DNA from: Escherichia coli
GTDB lineage: Bacteria; Pseudomonadota; Gammaproteobacteria; Enterobacterales; Enterobacteriaceae
Direction: 5' to 3' (one strand)
NCBI RefSeq assembly: GCF_030013205.1
Contig: NZ_CP122648.1
DNA length: 64,000 nucleotides
Positions 43,601 to 46,600 of the stretch are shown here, piece by piece; positions within the stretch are counted from its first letter, which is position 1; each line of letters opens with the position of its first letter. The position numbers were made by a program.

Positions 43601-46600
43601 CGAGGCTGTCATCGGGATATTCTTGAACTGGCGGATACGGTAAGTGAGCTGCGCCCCATCAAACATGCGTTTGATGCCGGTGTTAAGGCGCAAATAGGGA
43701 TTGATTATTAAGGGAAAGCACCTCAAAAGATCGTCTCTTGAGGTGCTAATTTTAGATACTGAATGGCTTAATTAGCCACGGCAAAATTAAGAAGAACTTG
43801 AATTTTATTCAAGTGTGCGGGATATTCCATATCATTATCCGCATTGACGTCTTCAATAAACATTATTAATTCAGTGATCAAATCATTAGCATCTTCATAA
43901 CTAATACCAGTCAGTTCTGGTGACGTTTGCGAGCCATAATTAATTGTCAGATTATTCATTACCGACAAAACCAGAATAAAATATTTGTGACATATATCGC
44001 AAGTTGTTCGGTTTCCTAAGGCATAGTACAGCATATTGAGCAATGCCAGTATTCGTCGATTTTGCACATCGTTCATAATGACCTCCTATAACATAACTCC
44101 GCTGGCAATAAGAAGTTTTGCCAGCTCCTCTGACGCCTGAAGACCACTAATAACTTGAGCACGCAGGATCTCATTCCTACGCTCTAAATCCGCTTTTGAA
44201 AGAGATTTATTAGAGTATAAATCTTGTAGATGATTTCCTTTATCCATGAAGGCATTAATAGCTTGTATTGCTGGAGCCGCCGGATCAGATGAACGCAATC
44301 TGCTTTCATTAAGATTAATTACTGCACTCAAAAATTCCTGCCTGCTCTTTAATGTCTTAAATTCTATATTTTTAGTATTTGCCCGGGCCTTATTATAGTA
44401 ATAAAAATTATTACTGATGTTCACAAAATTATTCCGATCCATTTGCTGCTGTTTCGTTGCTATATCATCAAGTAAATTTTGTAAATTTCTTTGAAGTCGT
44501 GGCCAGTCACTACCTACCGCTTTACCAACATTTTCTGATTTAATCTTCTCTTTGTATAATCCATTGAAATATTGAACTAAATCTTTAACAGCCACAGCTG
44601 ACTTAGTCAGTTTTTCACCTTCTGAAAAGCCAAGTAGTTTTTGGGCGTTGTTTGCGTGATCGAGCGCCTGATTAAGTAATATAATTTGTTTACTATCCTC
44701 AACATCCATACCCACCGTCAACAACTCCACATAGGAGCTCATACTGTTAACGATCTCAAGTGAAGCCAGTAGTTTTTGTTTTTCTGTTGTTGCCAATTGA
44801 ATTTTAGTAATATCTTTATACGATGTTTTGCCCCCTTTCTCTGATTGCAAACATAAGGACTCTTTATTAGTATTATTTTCCATAATCGTTTCATAATCAG
44901 GTCGCAATGCACAATCCGGATTAGTCGCATAAAAATTAACAAGGAAGTTTTCACGAGAAGCATAGTATTGTTTAAAGAAACTTGCATTCGCCGCAACCGC
45001 CTTGTTACCCGCAGTAATAACAGTTTCAGCTTGTTCATTCTTCAATGCTTCGGTTGCACAACCTGAAAGCATTAACAGCGATAGAAATATTCCACTATAT
45101 CTAATCATAACCCACCTCTTGACGTTGAGTTTATCTCAGATAATTAAATAGTAATGTGGCTATTTCCGGGTATTATTCATAAGCAAGTATGAAATTAAAT
45201 TAAAATACTGCGACTATTTATCATGCTTCAAATGAAGAAAAGGCCCCGCAGGGCCTTTATTTTATACTTATCTTAAATTAACCGTTATTATTACGTCCGC
45301 CAGAACGGCGACCACCGCTCACCTGGCTATGACGTTTCACCGCACGACGAATCTGATTCGCCTTCATACGACGACGGTCTTTTTCTACAGCGACTTTAGA
45401 GCTGGTTTCTGGCGGTAGCTCCACCAGTTCGCGCAGATAGTTAGTCTGGGCGAGGTCCAGCTCCGTCCAGCCACCGCGTGGCAGACCTTTTGGCAGTGGG
45501 ATATCACCGTAACGAACACGAATCAGGCGGCTTACCTGCACACCAACCGCTTCCCAAAGACGACGAACTTCACGGTTACGGCCTTCGGTCAGAGTAACGT
45601 TGTACCACTGGTTGATCCCTTCGCCGCCGCTGAACTTGATGGTTTTAAAGGCTGCCGGACCATCTTCCAACTGCACGCCACGACTCAAATCACGCAGTTT
45701 CGCGTCGTCAACCTGACCAAATACACGCACGGCATATTCACGTTCAACTTCACGGCTTGGGTGCATTAAACGGTTTGCCAGTTCACCATCGGTGGTGAAC
45801 AGCAGCAGACCACAGGTATTAACGTCCAGGCGACCCACGGCAATCCAGCGTGCGCCACGCAGTTTTGGCAGACGGTCAAACACCGTTGGACGTCCTTCCG
45901 GATCGTTACGGGTACACAACTCACCTTCCGGTTTGTAATAGGCCAGAACGCGACAAATTTGTTCAGCGGACTCACGTACCGAAATCAGGTGACCATCGAT
46001 ACGGATTTTCAATCCAGGGGTAACTTCAACGCGATCGCCGAGTTTAGCAATTTTGCCATCAACACTCACACGACCGGCTTCAATAATAGATTCGATTTCA
46101 CGGCGAGAGCCGTGGCCGGCACGCGCCAGCACTTTCTGTAGCTTTTCGCTCATAGAGCTTCCTTTTGGTGTCGCCTTCCCAGGCGTCTGATATGCTTTTG
46201 TGCAACAGTGAGTCAGAACTTACATCTGACTCACTGATAGTAAAGTCTGTTTGAACTCTTCAGGCCTTAAGTACTTAAGTAAACGACTCGACGTTTATCG
46301 GCCTGGCTTTGAGGCGCAACATACTACACTATCTTTATGGTTAAAGCTTGTTTCGATTAACATCAGCTTAATTACCAGCCACCACCGCCTCCGACACCCG
46401 CCCCGCCGCCAGCACCACCACCGGAATAACTTCGCCCCAACAAACTGGTATTGGCCCCCAGGCTCAGGTGCATCTGTAATGAAAACAAAACGCCACTACG
46501 GGCAATTTCCGGGGCGCTAACAGCCGCTGTGAGTGACGGCGTGATACGTGCTGCCCATTCTTTTCCAAGGTTTGCCGAGACTGCCCAACCTAGCAACGCG

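What the first reader, a model, noticed from the sequence alone, without database searches (positions are those of the whole stretch)
43754..45240. AT-rich two-gene islet (lipoprotein plus 102-aa protein) between btuR and rluB, of unknown function
Two tightly linked minus-strand genes sit between the convergent core genes btuR and rluB: a 340-aa lipoprotein (signal peptide plus lipobox MIRYSGIFLSLLMLSGC) at 44086..45108 and a 102-aa protein at 43768..44076, 9 nt apart. In K-12 gene order as I recall it, rluB and btuR are direct neighbours, so this looks like an insertion. Hand counts on several 60-nt blocks give roughly 32-40% G+C, well below the flanking core genes, which points to horizontal acquisition. 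The lipoprotein has a good RBS and the islet is bracketed by the btuR and rluB terminator hairpins. I cannot place either protein in a family; an envelope-associated toxin/immunity pair, a phage-defence module, or a surface lipoprotein with a cognate partner are all open possibilities. This is my best candidate for an undescribed system in the window.
Basis: partly seen in the sequence, partly recalled or inferred. Interest (0 to 1): 0.72.

Follow-up and report, generated by a model that had tools for sequence, protein, structure and literature searches.

The report
Uncharacterised lipoprotein plus small-partner gene cassette
Between two housekeeping genes, about a quarter of E. coli strains (including ST131) carry a real two-gene operon: an exported helical lipoprotein and a small cytosolic partner, both from protein families with no description, held as two very old, very different alleles plus an empty site; its function is unknown, and a role in envelope conflict (phage or bacteriocin exclusion) is my best guess, not a demonstrated result.

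Summary
Two minus-strand genes (340-aa lipoprotein 44086..45108; 102-aa protein 43768..44076; 9 nt apart, with the second ribosome-binding site overlapping the first stop codon) sit in the lowest-GC kilobase of the window, between btuR/cobO and rluB. K-12 has only 39 nt there.

Neither protein matches Pfam, NCBIfam, PADLOC, PHROGs or PDB sequences, and no paper mentions them.

An exhaustive profile search shows the lipoprotein belongs to a sparse, wider family of 324-357-aa lipoproteins in Proteobacteria and a Chlorobiaceae MAG. In all 15 loci examined it is followed by a 96-107-aa partner, so this is a conserved two-gene module.

The cassette is present in 1234 of 5426 complete E. coli genomes, as two allele classes about 74% identical in DNA. 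Allelic dS is about 1, against 0.08-0.19 in the flanks. The same site is occupied in E. albertii, E. whittamii and some Citrobacter, and there are no mobility signatures. It is therefore an old polymorphic locus rather than a demonstrably recent insertion.

In other genera the cassette lies in a P2-prophage moron site and in integrase/IS/Abi islands.

Function is unresolved. My best guess (about 0.35) is a non-enzymatic envelope exclusion or conflict module. Rivals are a toxin-immunity pair and a plain physiological lipoprotein.

The parts
45239..45258 (-). G+C-rich hairpin just downstream of rluB (rluB terminator). It marks the upstream border of the cassette's regulatory region.
   Evidence: Scored as terminator-like on both strands. 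A homologous hairpin is conserved in Escherichia spp. and Citrobacter loci.
45109..45238 (-). AT-rich upstream and 5' region of the lipoprotein gene, unusually conserved. It contains the block TAGTCGCAG (45208-45216), an imperfect 7-4-7 palindrome TTCATAC-TTGC-TTATGAA (45176-45193; a putative operator, inferred) and the GAGGTG Shine-Dalgarno sequence (45113-45118).
   Evidence: The rluB-lipoprotein intergenic stretch is 96-98% identical in E. coli class 2, E. whittamii and E. albertii, although rluB itself is only 87% identical to albertii. The blocks persist in Citrobacter, where the coding DNA is only about 57-61% identical. No sigma-70 consensus match of at least 9/12 was found here. No Rfam match.
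44086..45108 (-). Gene for a 340-aa lipoprotein precursor: signal peptide, lipobox LSGC (Cys17), Ala at +2, two invariant Cys (66, 86) around a hypervariable loop, and an all-helical body.
   Evidence: ORF. Family alignments A1 and A3, with invariant C17, C66, C86 and Y126. Lipobox and +2 survey. AF2 model with pLDDT 75.6 and pTM 0.71, helical bundle plus a small beta-hairpin. dN/dS 0.22-0.26.
43720..44919 (-). The allelic (polymorphic) segment: lipoprotein codons about 62-340, the whole partner gene and its 3' spacer. Its borders are sharp, and one of them lies inside the lipoprotein gene.
   Evidence: Sliding-window identity to the E. coli class-2 allele drops from 97-100% to 32-85% exactly over this span. 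By segment: codons 1-60 are 99.4% identical, codons 61-340 64.2%, the partner gene 69.9% and btuR 95.9%. pS is 0-0.05 for codons 1-60 and 0.44-0.82 after that.
43768..44076 (-). Gene for a 102-aa acidic partner protein, predicted soluble (net charge -7; conserved Cys26 and Cys29-His30). It is translationally coupled to the lipoprotein gene through the SD AGGAGG at 44082-44087.
   Evidence: ORF. Alignment A2. No hydrophobic segment (maximum Kyte-Doolittle 19-residue mean 1.06) and the 9-nt gap. pN 0.08-0.26 against pS 0.35-0.88. A 96-107-aa partner is present downstream in 15 of 15 loci.
43717..43747 (.). Hairpin between the partner gene and the convergent btuR/cobO. It probably acts as a shared terminator. 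It differs in sequence from the single hairpin in the K-12 empty site.
   Evidence: Inverted repeat I5, 14-nt arms, 93% complementary, 3-nt loop. The terminator scan did not score it because it lacks a T-run. K-12-type spacer sequence.

Best explanation
What it is (well supported): a real, self-contained two-gene operon whose products are members of two undescribed protein families.

Gene 1 encodes a lipoprotein precursor.
- After lipidation at Cys17 it is predicted to go to the outer membrane. Residue +2 is Ala, and it is never Asp in the 36 of 41 family members whose lipobox my pattern recognised.
- The mature protein is a long all-alpha bundle.
- It carries a small beta-hairpin loop closed by two invariant cysteines. 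I infer a periplasmic disulfide.
- No catalytic-type residues are conserved across the family.

Gene 2 is translated by coupling from the same mRNA. It gives a roughly 100-aa acidic helical protein with no signal peptide or membrane segment, so it is probably cytosolic.

The pair travels as a unit across Proteobacteria. In Escherichia it is an old polymorphic locus with two deeply diverged alleles and a null allele. The swapped unit is the lipoprotein body plus the partner gene, placed behind a conserved promoter and signal-peptide segment.

How it most likely works (inferred, about 0.35): the lipoprotein is a non-enzymatic binder at the envelope. It excludes or neutralises an incoming agent (a phage, a bacteriocin or another cell's effector), and the exposed disulfide loop sets specificity. 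The fast-evolving partner would be its cognate cytosolic component: an assembly or holding factor, or a second, intracellular step. Frequency-dependent selection by the antagonist would maintain the alleles and the null state.
For: Real coding operon:
- ORFs and coupling.
- Purifying selection on both genes.

Module conservation:
- The exhaustive profile search finds about 35 full-length 324-357-aa relatives at 14-25% identity.
- A 96-107-aa ORF lies 1-45 nt downstream in 15 of 15 loci.

Export:
- All 41 members have a lipobox-like motif (36 matched by my pattern, 5 near-variants read by eye). In the 36, +2 is A, G, S or T.
- 31 of those 36 have exactly two Cys in the mature protein.
- C66 and C86 are invariant.

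Not an enzyme: across 41 sequences only C17, C66, C86 and Y126 are invariant.

Fold: helical bundle, pLDDT 75.6.

Conflict-type signatures:
- Present in 22.7% of E. coli, in two classes with nothing between 80 and 95% identity.
- Allelic dS about 1, against 0.08-0.19 in the flanks.
- Sharp mosaic border inside the gene.
- Highest pN/pS (0.5-0.8), with indels, in the Cys-bounded loop.
- The partner diverges faster than the lipoprotein, beyond recognition between subfamilies.
- The cassette sits in the P2 S-V moron site of a Buttiauxella prophage, in a Raoultella island with integrase, AlpA, IS, putative AbiC and HicB, and beside a colicin DNase/immunity pair, an IS and TacA.
- In enterobacterial hosts it has lower G+C than the flanks.
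Against: - No experimental or homology-based link to any function.
- No hit to 5027 PADLOC defence models for either protein or for distant relatives.
- No hit in phage genomes or IMG/VR. The prophage case is a single species.
- In Escherichia, Citrobacter, Pantoea and the Chlorobiaceae-type lineage the cassette lies among housekeeping genes, not in defence islands.
- A cytosolic partner for an exported lipoprotein has no obvious role in an exclusion model.
- All windowed pN/pS values are below 1, so positive selection is not shown.
- Deep alleles could come from introgression rather than balancing selection.
- Outer-membrane targeting, the disulfide and the cytosolic location are predictions only.
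Confidence: 0.35

Rival explanations
1. Physiological envelope accessory. The lipoprotein is a structural or sensory periplasmic or outer-membrane helical protein, comparable in status to YiiG-like lipoproteins of unknown function. It would have a niche-specific housekeeping role in envelope stress, adhesion or nutrient handling. The small protein would be a dedicated cytosolic helper or regulator. There would be no role in conflict.
For: - Stable position among housekeeping genes in Escherichia, Citrobacter, Pantoea and the Chlorobiaceae-type lineage. In the last, 22 further places have mostly the same neighbouring genes.
- A strongly conserved upstream region with a palindrome suggests integration into host regulation.
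- No defence or toxin domain.
- Foldseek's nearest annotated neighbours are periplasmic helical lipoproteins: DUF3829-labelled, imelysin-like and NarX/PilJ-like.
- dN/dS is below 1 throughout.
Against: - A patchy, sparse distribution, with only 2 of about 100,000 species representatives carrying the close subfamily.
- A null allele in 77% of E. coli.
- Two alleles far older than the flanks.
- Carriage in a prophage moron site and in mobile islands.
- Sporadic inactivation by IS1 or frameshift.
These features are unusual for a plain physiological gene.
Confidence: 0.3
2. Polymorphic lipoprotein toxin with a cytosolic immunity protein, analogous to myxobacterial SitA/SitI. The conserved N-terminal part would direct export and lipidation. 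The variable body would be a toxin passed to neighbouring cells through outer-membrane material. The small downstream protein would protect kin.
For: - Large gene followed by a small gene, tightly coupled.
- The small partner is acidic, soluble, predicted helical and about 100 aa, like many immunity proteins. It evolves faster than the large protein.
- The allelic unit is the C-terminal 80% of the lipoprotein plus the partner, behind a conserved 5' segment.
- A colicin DNase/immunity pair is nearby in one locus.
- The partner's cytosolic location fits a toxin that acts in the cytoplasm.
Against: - No recognisable toxin domain, and no conserved catalytic-type residues across the family.
- The variable bodies are homologous along their full length, about 65% aa identity. 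They are not swapped unrelated domains as in true polymorphic toxins.
- No hydrophobic hairpin of the pore-former type was seen by reading the sequence. This was not tested with a tool.
- From general knowledge, no outer-membrane exchange machinery is known in E. coli.
- No arrays of orphan immunity genes were seen.
Confidence: 0.15
3. On origin: a recently acquired foreign islet, inserted between rluB and btuR in some E. coli lineages by horizontal transfer.
For: - G+C of 0.36 against 0.50 in the flanks.
- Absent from K-12, from strain B and from 77% of genomes.
- Related cassettes are clearly mobile in other genera.
- Only sporadic Citrobacter strains carry it, so transfer through the conserved flanks is plausible.
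Against: - No repeats, integrase, IS or tRNA at the borders.
- The same site is occupied in three Escherichia species and in Citrobacter.
- Class-2 E. coli against E. whittamii has lipoprotein pS 0.17, close to flank divergence. Class 1 against E. albertii has partner dS 0.48, at or below flank dS 0.78. This fits long residence or trans-species alleles.
- The whole spacer differs between occupied and empty sites, which is not a simple insertion.
Confidence: 0.25

Closest known systems
DUF3829 / YiiG lipoproteins (Pfam PF12889; E. coli YiiG, function unknown)
   Same: Both are enterobacterial lipoproteins of similar size (about 330-350 aa) with a predicted all-helical periplasmic body. Both have two conserved cysteines. 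Foldseek places DUF3829-labelled AlphaFold models among the nearest annotated neighbours (E 2e-11 for a 22%-identical Yokenella protein; 8e-5 to 1e-4 for others).
   Different: No sequence relationship was found.
- None of 41 family members hits PF12889.
- hhalign of the family profile against YiiG, and against a 22-sequence DUF3829 alignment, gives 5% and 3% probability.
- In K-12, yiiG has no small downstream partner. The next gene, frvR, is on the other strand.
- YiiG is a core gene, not a polymorphic one.
SitA/SitI polymorphic lipoprotein toxin-immunity cassettes of Myxococcus (from general knowledge of the literature, not retrieved here)
   Same: A lipoprotein is followed by a small cytosolic cognate protein. 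The cassette is mobile and patchily distributed. Alleles are diverse, and the variable part lies downstream of a conserved N-terminal export segment.
   Different: SitA carries recognisable C-terminal nuclease-type toxin domains and depends on TraAB outer-membrane exchange. Here there is no toxin domain or conserved catalytic residue, the alleles are homologous throughout, and no exchange machinery is known in E. coli.
Superinfection-exclusion lipoproteins of phages (T5 Llp, phi80/N15 Cor, Streptococcus TP-J34 Ltp; from general knowledge)
   Same: An envelope-anchored, non-enzymatic lipoprotein encoded by an accessory 'moron'-type gene. One relative sits in the nonessential S-V (Orf30) site of a P2-like prophage.
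   Different: No sequence or fold match to any phage protein in PHROGs, INPHARED, IMG/VR or BFVD. The protein is far larger than Llp or Cor. It always comes with a second, cytosolic gene. It is mostly chromosomal and not prophage-borne.
Known anti-phage defence systems (PADLOC-DB v2.0.0)
   Same: Small, self-contained, patchily distributed, low-G+C cassette. It sometimes lies in islands with Abi and toxin-antitoxin genes.
   Different: No significant model hit for either protein or for distant relatives. The best E-values are 0.04-0.075. No nuclease, ATPase, TIR or other effector domain is present.

Membership tests
Bacterial lipoproteins (Lgt/LspA/Lnt pathway substrates) | N-terminal signal peptide ending in a lipobox [LVI][ASTVI][GAS]C | tested here: met
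   The window protein has MIRYSGIFLSLLMLSGC. Of 41 family members, 36 match a strict pattern. The other 5 have near-variants (TSGC, LMGC, TAC, VGC, GGC).
Bacterial lipoproteins (Lgt/LspA/Lnt pathway substrates) | Actual lipidation and Lol-dependent outer-membrane sorting (no Asp at +2) | not testable with these tools
   +2 is A (28), G (6), S (1) or T (1) and never D. This predicts outer-membrane sorting by the E. coli +2 rule (established knowledge). Lipidation and localisation need experiments.
DUF3829 / YiiG (PF12889) | Significant match to the Pfam PF12889 profile | tested here: not met
   No PF12889 hit for the window protein or for any of the 41 relatives.
DUF3829 / YiiG (PF12889) | Profile-profile homology to YiiG relatives | tested here: not met
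   hhalign of A3 against YiiG gives 5.3% probability (signal peptide only). A3 against the 22-sequence DUF3829 alignment A6 gives 3.4%.
DUF3829 / YiiG (PF12889) | Shared fold | tested here: inconclusive
Known anti-phage defence systems (PADLOC) | Match of at least one component to a defence-system HMM | tested here: not met
   Best hits are E 0.075 (TIR-TM) and 0.042 (PDC-M05A), both far below significance. Nothing was found for the partners.
Known anti-phage defence systems (PADLOC) | Recurrent location in defence islands or mobile-element hotspots | tested here: inconclusive
   Three of about 10 independent contexts are a prophage moron site or an MGE/Abi/TA island. The others are housekeeping neighbourhoods.
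Polymorphic toxin-immunity systems (SitA/SitI, CDI, Rhs, colicins) | Recognisable C-terminal toxin domain with conserved catalytic residues | tested here: not met
   No Pfam or NCBIfam domain was found. The only family-wide invariants are C17, C66, C86 and Y126.
Polymorphic toxin-immunity systems (SitA/SitI, CDI, Rhs, colicins) | Conserved N-terminal part, with the variable C-terminal part swapped together with a small downstream cognate gene | tested here: inconclusive
   There is a sharp border at codon about 62, and the variable unit includes the partner gene. However, the alleles are homologous throughout (65% aa identity), so this is not a domain replacement.
Polymorphic toxin-immunity systems (SitA/SitI, CDI, Rhs, colicins) | Toxicity of the large protein neutralised specifically by the cognate small protein | not testable with these tools
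   Needs expression and competition assays.
Prophage superinfection-exclusion lipoproteins (Llp, Cor, Ltp) | Encoded by a (pro)phage and homologous to a phage protein family | tested here: not met
   Only the Buttiauxella relative is prophage-borne. There is no match in PHROGs, 50,697 phage genomes, IMG/VR or BFVD.
Integrative genomic island | Integrase or IS, a tRNA or attachment site, and flanking direct repeats | tested here: not met
   Only short chance-level repeats were found. No mobility gene lies within 3 kb on either side.
Type II toxin-antitoxin pair | Two small cytosolic proteins, with a toxin that acts in the producing cell's cytoplasm | tested here: not met
   The large product is a 340-aa exported lipoprotein precursor. 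No TA family hit was found.

The most novel reading that the evidence does not exclude
The cassette is the founding example of a new kind of two-compartment envelope conflict system. An outer-membrane lipoprotein has a disulfide-bounded hypervariable loop that recognises an invading agent (phage, bacteriocin or a neighbour's effector). It works with a cognate, co-diversifying cytosolic partner. Balancing selection has kept two specificities plus a null allele at one chromosomal site since before the Escherichia species split. The same module is borrowed by prophages and islands in other Enterobacterales.
Probability: 0.2. Interest if true: 0.8.

Novelty: categorically new. Interest (0 to 1): 0.58.

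Why it matters
Prevalence: the cassette is in about 23% of complete E. coli genomes, including the pandemic ST131 lineage. Even so, both genes are annotated only as 'hypothetical protein', and neither has any family assignment.

What the data add:
- The two genes form a conserved module across distant bacteria.
- In Escherichia they form a long-lived polymorphism of two alleles and a null allele at a fixed site. Loci of this type often turn out to mediate interactions with phages, competitors or hosts.

If the function is exclusion or defence, it would add a lipoprotein-based mechanism with no enzymatic effector to the known repertoire. If it is toxin-immunity, it would be the first SitA-like system outside myxobacteria.

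If the function is mundane, the locus is still a clean natural system for studying balancing selection and intragenic recombination borders in E. coli. It also gives a defined pair of new protein families to seed Pfam and NCBIfam.

Tried and rejected
Searches that found nothing useful:
- Family libraries. Pfam, NCBIfam, PADLOC and PHROGs were run on both window proteins and on distant relatives and partners. Only noise was returned, with E-values of 0.004 or weaker and bit scores far below the NCBIfam cut-offs.
- PDB sequence profiles. Only coiled-coil noise.
- First AF2 run. The 13-sequence alignment gave pLDDT 47 and was discarded. The 41-sequence alignment gave a usable model.
- BFVD viral structures. 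Nothing at E of 0.001 or better.
- Phages and viral contigs. tblastn against phages and four IMG/VR scans gave no relative.
- Alignments too divergent to scan. A3 and A4 could not be used for locus scanning.
- Plasmids. All three hits were mislabelled or poor-quality chromosomal sequence: one carries trpL, and one record is 4.9 Mb. I dismissed them.
- Rfam on the locus. Nothing.
- Literature. No paper for four RefSeq protein accessions, for rluB+btuR, or for DUF3829/YiiG function.

Ideas considered and rejected:
- DUF3829 membership. Rejected by profile-profile comparison.
- A Tat or Sec signal in the partner (NRRILALL..ALG). Rejected because homologous and analogous partners in other loci have charged amphipathic N-termini and no hydrophobic core.
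- The partner's CxxCH as a haem-c site. Rejected because it is not conserved outside the Escherichia/Citrobacter subfamily and the protein lacks an export signal.
- A cassette-borne autoregulatory operator. The upstream palindrome is not found upstream of distant cassettes.
- EvgA-box or ARG-box resemblance of the palindrome. The match by eye was too weak to claim.
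Full report
1. THE OBSERVATION

- 44086..45108 encodes 340 aa and starts MIRYSGIFLSLLMLSGC.
- 43768..44076 encodes 102 aa.
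- They are 9 nt apart. The second gene's AGGAGG ribosome-binding site (44082-44087) overlaps the TAG stop of the first, which is the classic layout for translational coupling.
- The first gene has a GAGGTG site 4 nt before its ATG.

Composition is atypical. G+C is 0.32-0.41 across the islet against 0.48-0.57 on either side. The kilobase 44001-45000 is the lowest of the whole 64-kb window, at 0.369.

The flanks are yciK-btuR/cobO on the plus strand and rluB-yciQ on the minus strand. The window is 100% identical to E. coli K_EC180, where both genes are annotated 'hypothetical protein'.

In MG1655, rluB and btuR are 39 nt apart. That spacer has a single hairpin unrelated to the islet's ends.

The islet is bracketed by two hairpins of its own, at 43717-43747 and 45239-45258.

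Both ORFs are under purifying selection between alleles. pN is far below pS, and dN/dS is 0.17-0.26 where dS is not saturated. They are genes, not chance ORFs.

2. NO KNOWN FAMILY

- Neither protein gives a significant hit in Pfam, NCBIfam, PADLOC or PHROGs.
- Family profiles find nothing in PDB sequences.
- The word-indexed search of 5.8 billion proteins returns only 26 clusters for the lipoprotein and 14 for the partner. All those that carry a name are from Escherichia or Citrobacter, and all are unnamed.
- No paper in the library mentions the RefSeq accessions or the locus.

3. A WIDER FAMILY AND A CONSERVED TWO-GENE MODULE

An exhaustive HMMER profile search of 1.84 billion representatives found 58 matches. 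About 35 of these are full-length proteins of 324-357 aa at only 14-25% identity.
- All have a signal peptide with a lipobox-like motif. Residue +2 is A, G, S or T and never Asp.
- Of the 36 members with a pattern-matched lipobox, 31 have exactly two cysteines in the mature part.
- Across 41 sequences the only invariant residues are the lipobox Cys, Cys66, Cys86 and Tyr126.

Named members come from Buttiauxella, Raoultella, Klebsiella, Rahnella, Pantoea, Methylomonas and a Chlorobiaceae MAG. All are 'hypothetical'.

In every locus I could read, 15 of 15, the lipoprotein gene is followed 1-45 nt downstream (usually 9-12 nt) by an ORF of 96-107 aa.

The partners share these properties:
- None has a hydrophobic segment.
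- Most are acidic, with net charge -4 to -9.
- They evolve faster than the lipoproteins. The Escherichia/Citrobacter partner is detectably related to the Buttiauxella one (hhalign 87%, E 4e-6), but not to the Raoultella/Pantoea group.
- A cysteine just after the first predicted helix recurs in 10 of 11.

The unit of inheritance is therefore the pair.

4. STRUCTURE

With the 41-sequence alignment, AlphaFold2 gives a medium-confidence model (pLDDT 75.6, pTM 0.71). It shows long helices, one of about 50 residues, packed as a bundle. A small beta-hairpin (73-77 and 100-104) lies next to the two invariant cysteines.
- The loop between the cysteines is the most variable part of the protein and carries indels.
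- Foldseek against AFDB50 finds the protein's own family. More weakly, it finds models labelled DUF3829, imelysin-like or NarX/PilJ-like.

I tested the DUF3829/YiiG lead directly. No family member hits PF12889. Profile-profile comparison with YiiG, and with a 22-sequence DUF3829 alignment, gives 5% and 3% probability. This is not a DUF3829 member. At most it shares a broad helical-lipoprotein architecture.

5. POPULATION GENETICS IN ESCHERICHIA

The islet is present once per genome in 1234 of 5426 complete E. coli genomes (22.7%).
- 775 genomes are at 95% DNA identity or more. These include many O25b:H4-ST131 strains.
- 459 genomes are at 73-75%.
- None lies between 80 and 95%.

The same site is occupied in E. 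whittamii and E. albertii. These were the only two hits among about 100,000 species representatives, and in the albertii type strain the lipoprotein gene is frameshifted. It is also occupied in Citrobacter sp. ANG330 and in two metagenomic contigs whose cassettes are closest to the Citrobacter one, at about 55% aa identity.

Divergence between the two E. coli classes:
- The lipoprotein has dN 0.25 and dS 0.97.
- The partner's synonymous sites are saturated.
- The flanks have dS 0.08 (rluB) and 0.19 (btuR).

Allele sharing across species:
- The class-2 allele is close to the whittamii allele (pS 0.17).
- Class 1 is closest to albertii (partner dS 0.48 against flank dS 0.78).

The divergent tract has sharp borders at 43720 and 44919. 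Identity to the class-2 allele by segment:
- rluB: 98.1%.
- The 169-nt upstream spacer: 97.6%.
- Lipoprotein codons 1-60: 99.4% (pS 0-0.05).
- Codons 61-340: 64.2%.
- The partner gene: 69.9%.
- The 3' spacer: 68%.
- btuR: 95.9%.

The allelic unit is therefore the mature lipoprotein body plus the partner, behind a shared promoter and signal-peptide segment. pN/pS peaks in codons 61-120 at 0.5-0.8 but never exceeds 1.

No repeats, integrase, IS or tRNA mark the borders.

Taken together, this is an old locus with long-lived alleles and a null state. It was not visibly inserted recently. Whether the empty K-12 state is ancestral or a loss is not resolved.

6. REGULATION

The 169-nt spacer upstream of the lipoprotein gene is 96-98% identical among E. 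coli, E. whittamii and E. albertii, although rluB itself is only 87% identical to albertii.

Some blocks survive even in Citrobacter:
- TAGTCGCAG (45208-45216).
- An imperfect palindrome TTCATAC-TTGC-TTATGAA (45176-45193).
- The Shine-Dalgarno sequence.

No good sigma-70 consensus is found. The palindrome is absent upstream of distant cassettes. I infer host-specific, probably factor-dependent control. This is a lead, not a result.

7. CONTEXTS ELSEWHERE

- Buttiauxella agrestis: the cassette (G+C 0.34-0.40 in a 0.55-0.62 background) lies between tail genes S and V of a P2-like prophage. This is the site of the nonessential Orf30 in P2 itself.
- Raoultella: it lies in an island with an integrase, two AlpA genes, an IS, putative AbiC, HicB, and FRG and DUF3800 proteins.
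- One metagenomic contig: it lies near a colicin DNase/immunity pair, an IS and TacA.
- Pantoea and the Chlorobiaceae-type lineage: the neighbours are ordinary metabolic genes.
- No phage genome, viral contig or genuine plasmid carries a relative.

8. INTERPRETATION

Shown:
- A real, coupled two-gene operon.
- Two undescribed families.
- A conserved pairing across phyla-level distances.
- A fixed-site polymorphism with ancient alleles.

Inferred from sequence rules and established knowledge:
- Lipidation and outer-membrane sorting.
- A periplasmic disulfide.
- A cytosolic partner.
- A non-enzymatic role, because no catalytic-type residues are conserved.

Several features are those of genes involved in conflict: patchy distribution, a null allele, deep alleles, a hypervariable disulfide loop, a fast-evolving cognate partner and occasional carriage by a prophage and by islands.

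My best single mechanism is an envelope exclusion or gatekeeper module, at about 0.35. The rivals are:
- A plain physiological lipoprotein with a helper, about 0.30.
- A SitA/SitI-like lipoprotein toxin with cytosolic immunity, about 0.15. This fits the gene order and the compartments but lacks any toxin domain.

The role of a cytosolic partner is the weakest point of the exclusion model. Positive selection and balancing selection are not demonstrated.

9. NOVELTY AND SCORE

By sequence, profile and fold, neither protein can be filed under any described family or system. I therefore rate the pair as lying outside known kinds. I stress that 'new family of unknown function' is what is shown, not a new mechanism.

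Interest is moderate to high (0.58). The cassette is a frequent accessory element of clinically important E. coli with unusual population genetics, and it is directly testable. There is as yet no functional evidence.

Noticed in passing
window 45109-45238 (palindrome 45176-45193; block 45208-45216): The non-coding stretch upstream of the lipoprotein gene is more conserved between Escherichia species (96-98%) than the adjacent rluB coding sequence (87% with E. albertii). Short blocks, including an 18-bp imperfect palindrome, persist in Citrobacter. This may be an operator or another regulatory element. There is no Rfam match.
   Followed up: partly
window 43121-43711 (btuR/cobO), especially 43240-43359: btuR is markedly more diverged than rluB in the same strain comparisons. 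dS is 0.31 against 0.06 versus a K-12-like strain, and there is an 88-90% identity patch against the class-2 strain. This suggests recombination tracts or hitch-hiking next to the polymorphic cassette.
   Followed up: partly
L018 2898-3919 (E. albertii NBRC 107761); E. coli hits H5 and H73: The cassette is sometimes inactivated. The lipoprotein gene is split by a frameshift (244 + 96 aa) in the E. albertii type strain. IS1 insertions lie in or next to the cassette in at least two E. coli genomes. Several database clusters are 5'-frameshifted variants lacking the signal peptide (for example P0016).
   Followed up: partly
window 43768-44076, residues 26-30 of the partner: A CxxCH motif (CDICH) is invariant in the Escherichia/Citrobacter partner proteins but not in more distant partners. 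A single Cys after the first helix recurs in 10 of 11 partners. Possible metal or redox site, unexplained.
   Followed up: partly
window 58701-58886: Adjacent Rfam matches to isrK (58701-58775) and C4 antisense RNA (58799-58886) lie in a lower-GC stretch (about 0.42 at 57-59 kb) downstream of the trp operon. These RNAs are typical of P1/P7-type or related prophage immunity regions, so a prophage or prophage remnant probably lies here.
   Followed up: no
window 63900-63973 (-) and 61000-64000: A tRNA gene lies at the end of the window in a 0.44 G+C region. It could be an integration site for the neighbouring low-GC element.
   Followed up: no
window 35777-35979 (-): Full-length match to the enterobacterial sRNA STnc180 (202 bits).
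   Followed up: no
L025/L026 6864-7910: In the Chlorobiaceae-type lineage, a 348-aa TIG-domain protein is encoded immediately upstream of the lipoprotein-partner pair on the same strand. It may be a third component in that subfamily.
   Followed up: no
L023 9533-9751 and L024 315-533: A conserved 72-aa ORF lies about 250 nt upstream of the Raoultella/Klebsiella-type cassette in two independent contigs. It could be an extra, subfamily-specific component or regulator.
   Followed up: no
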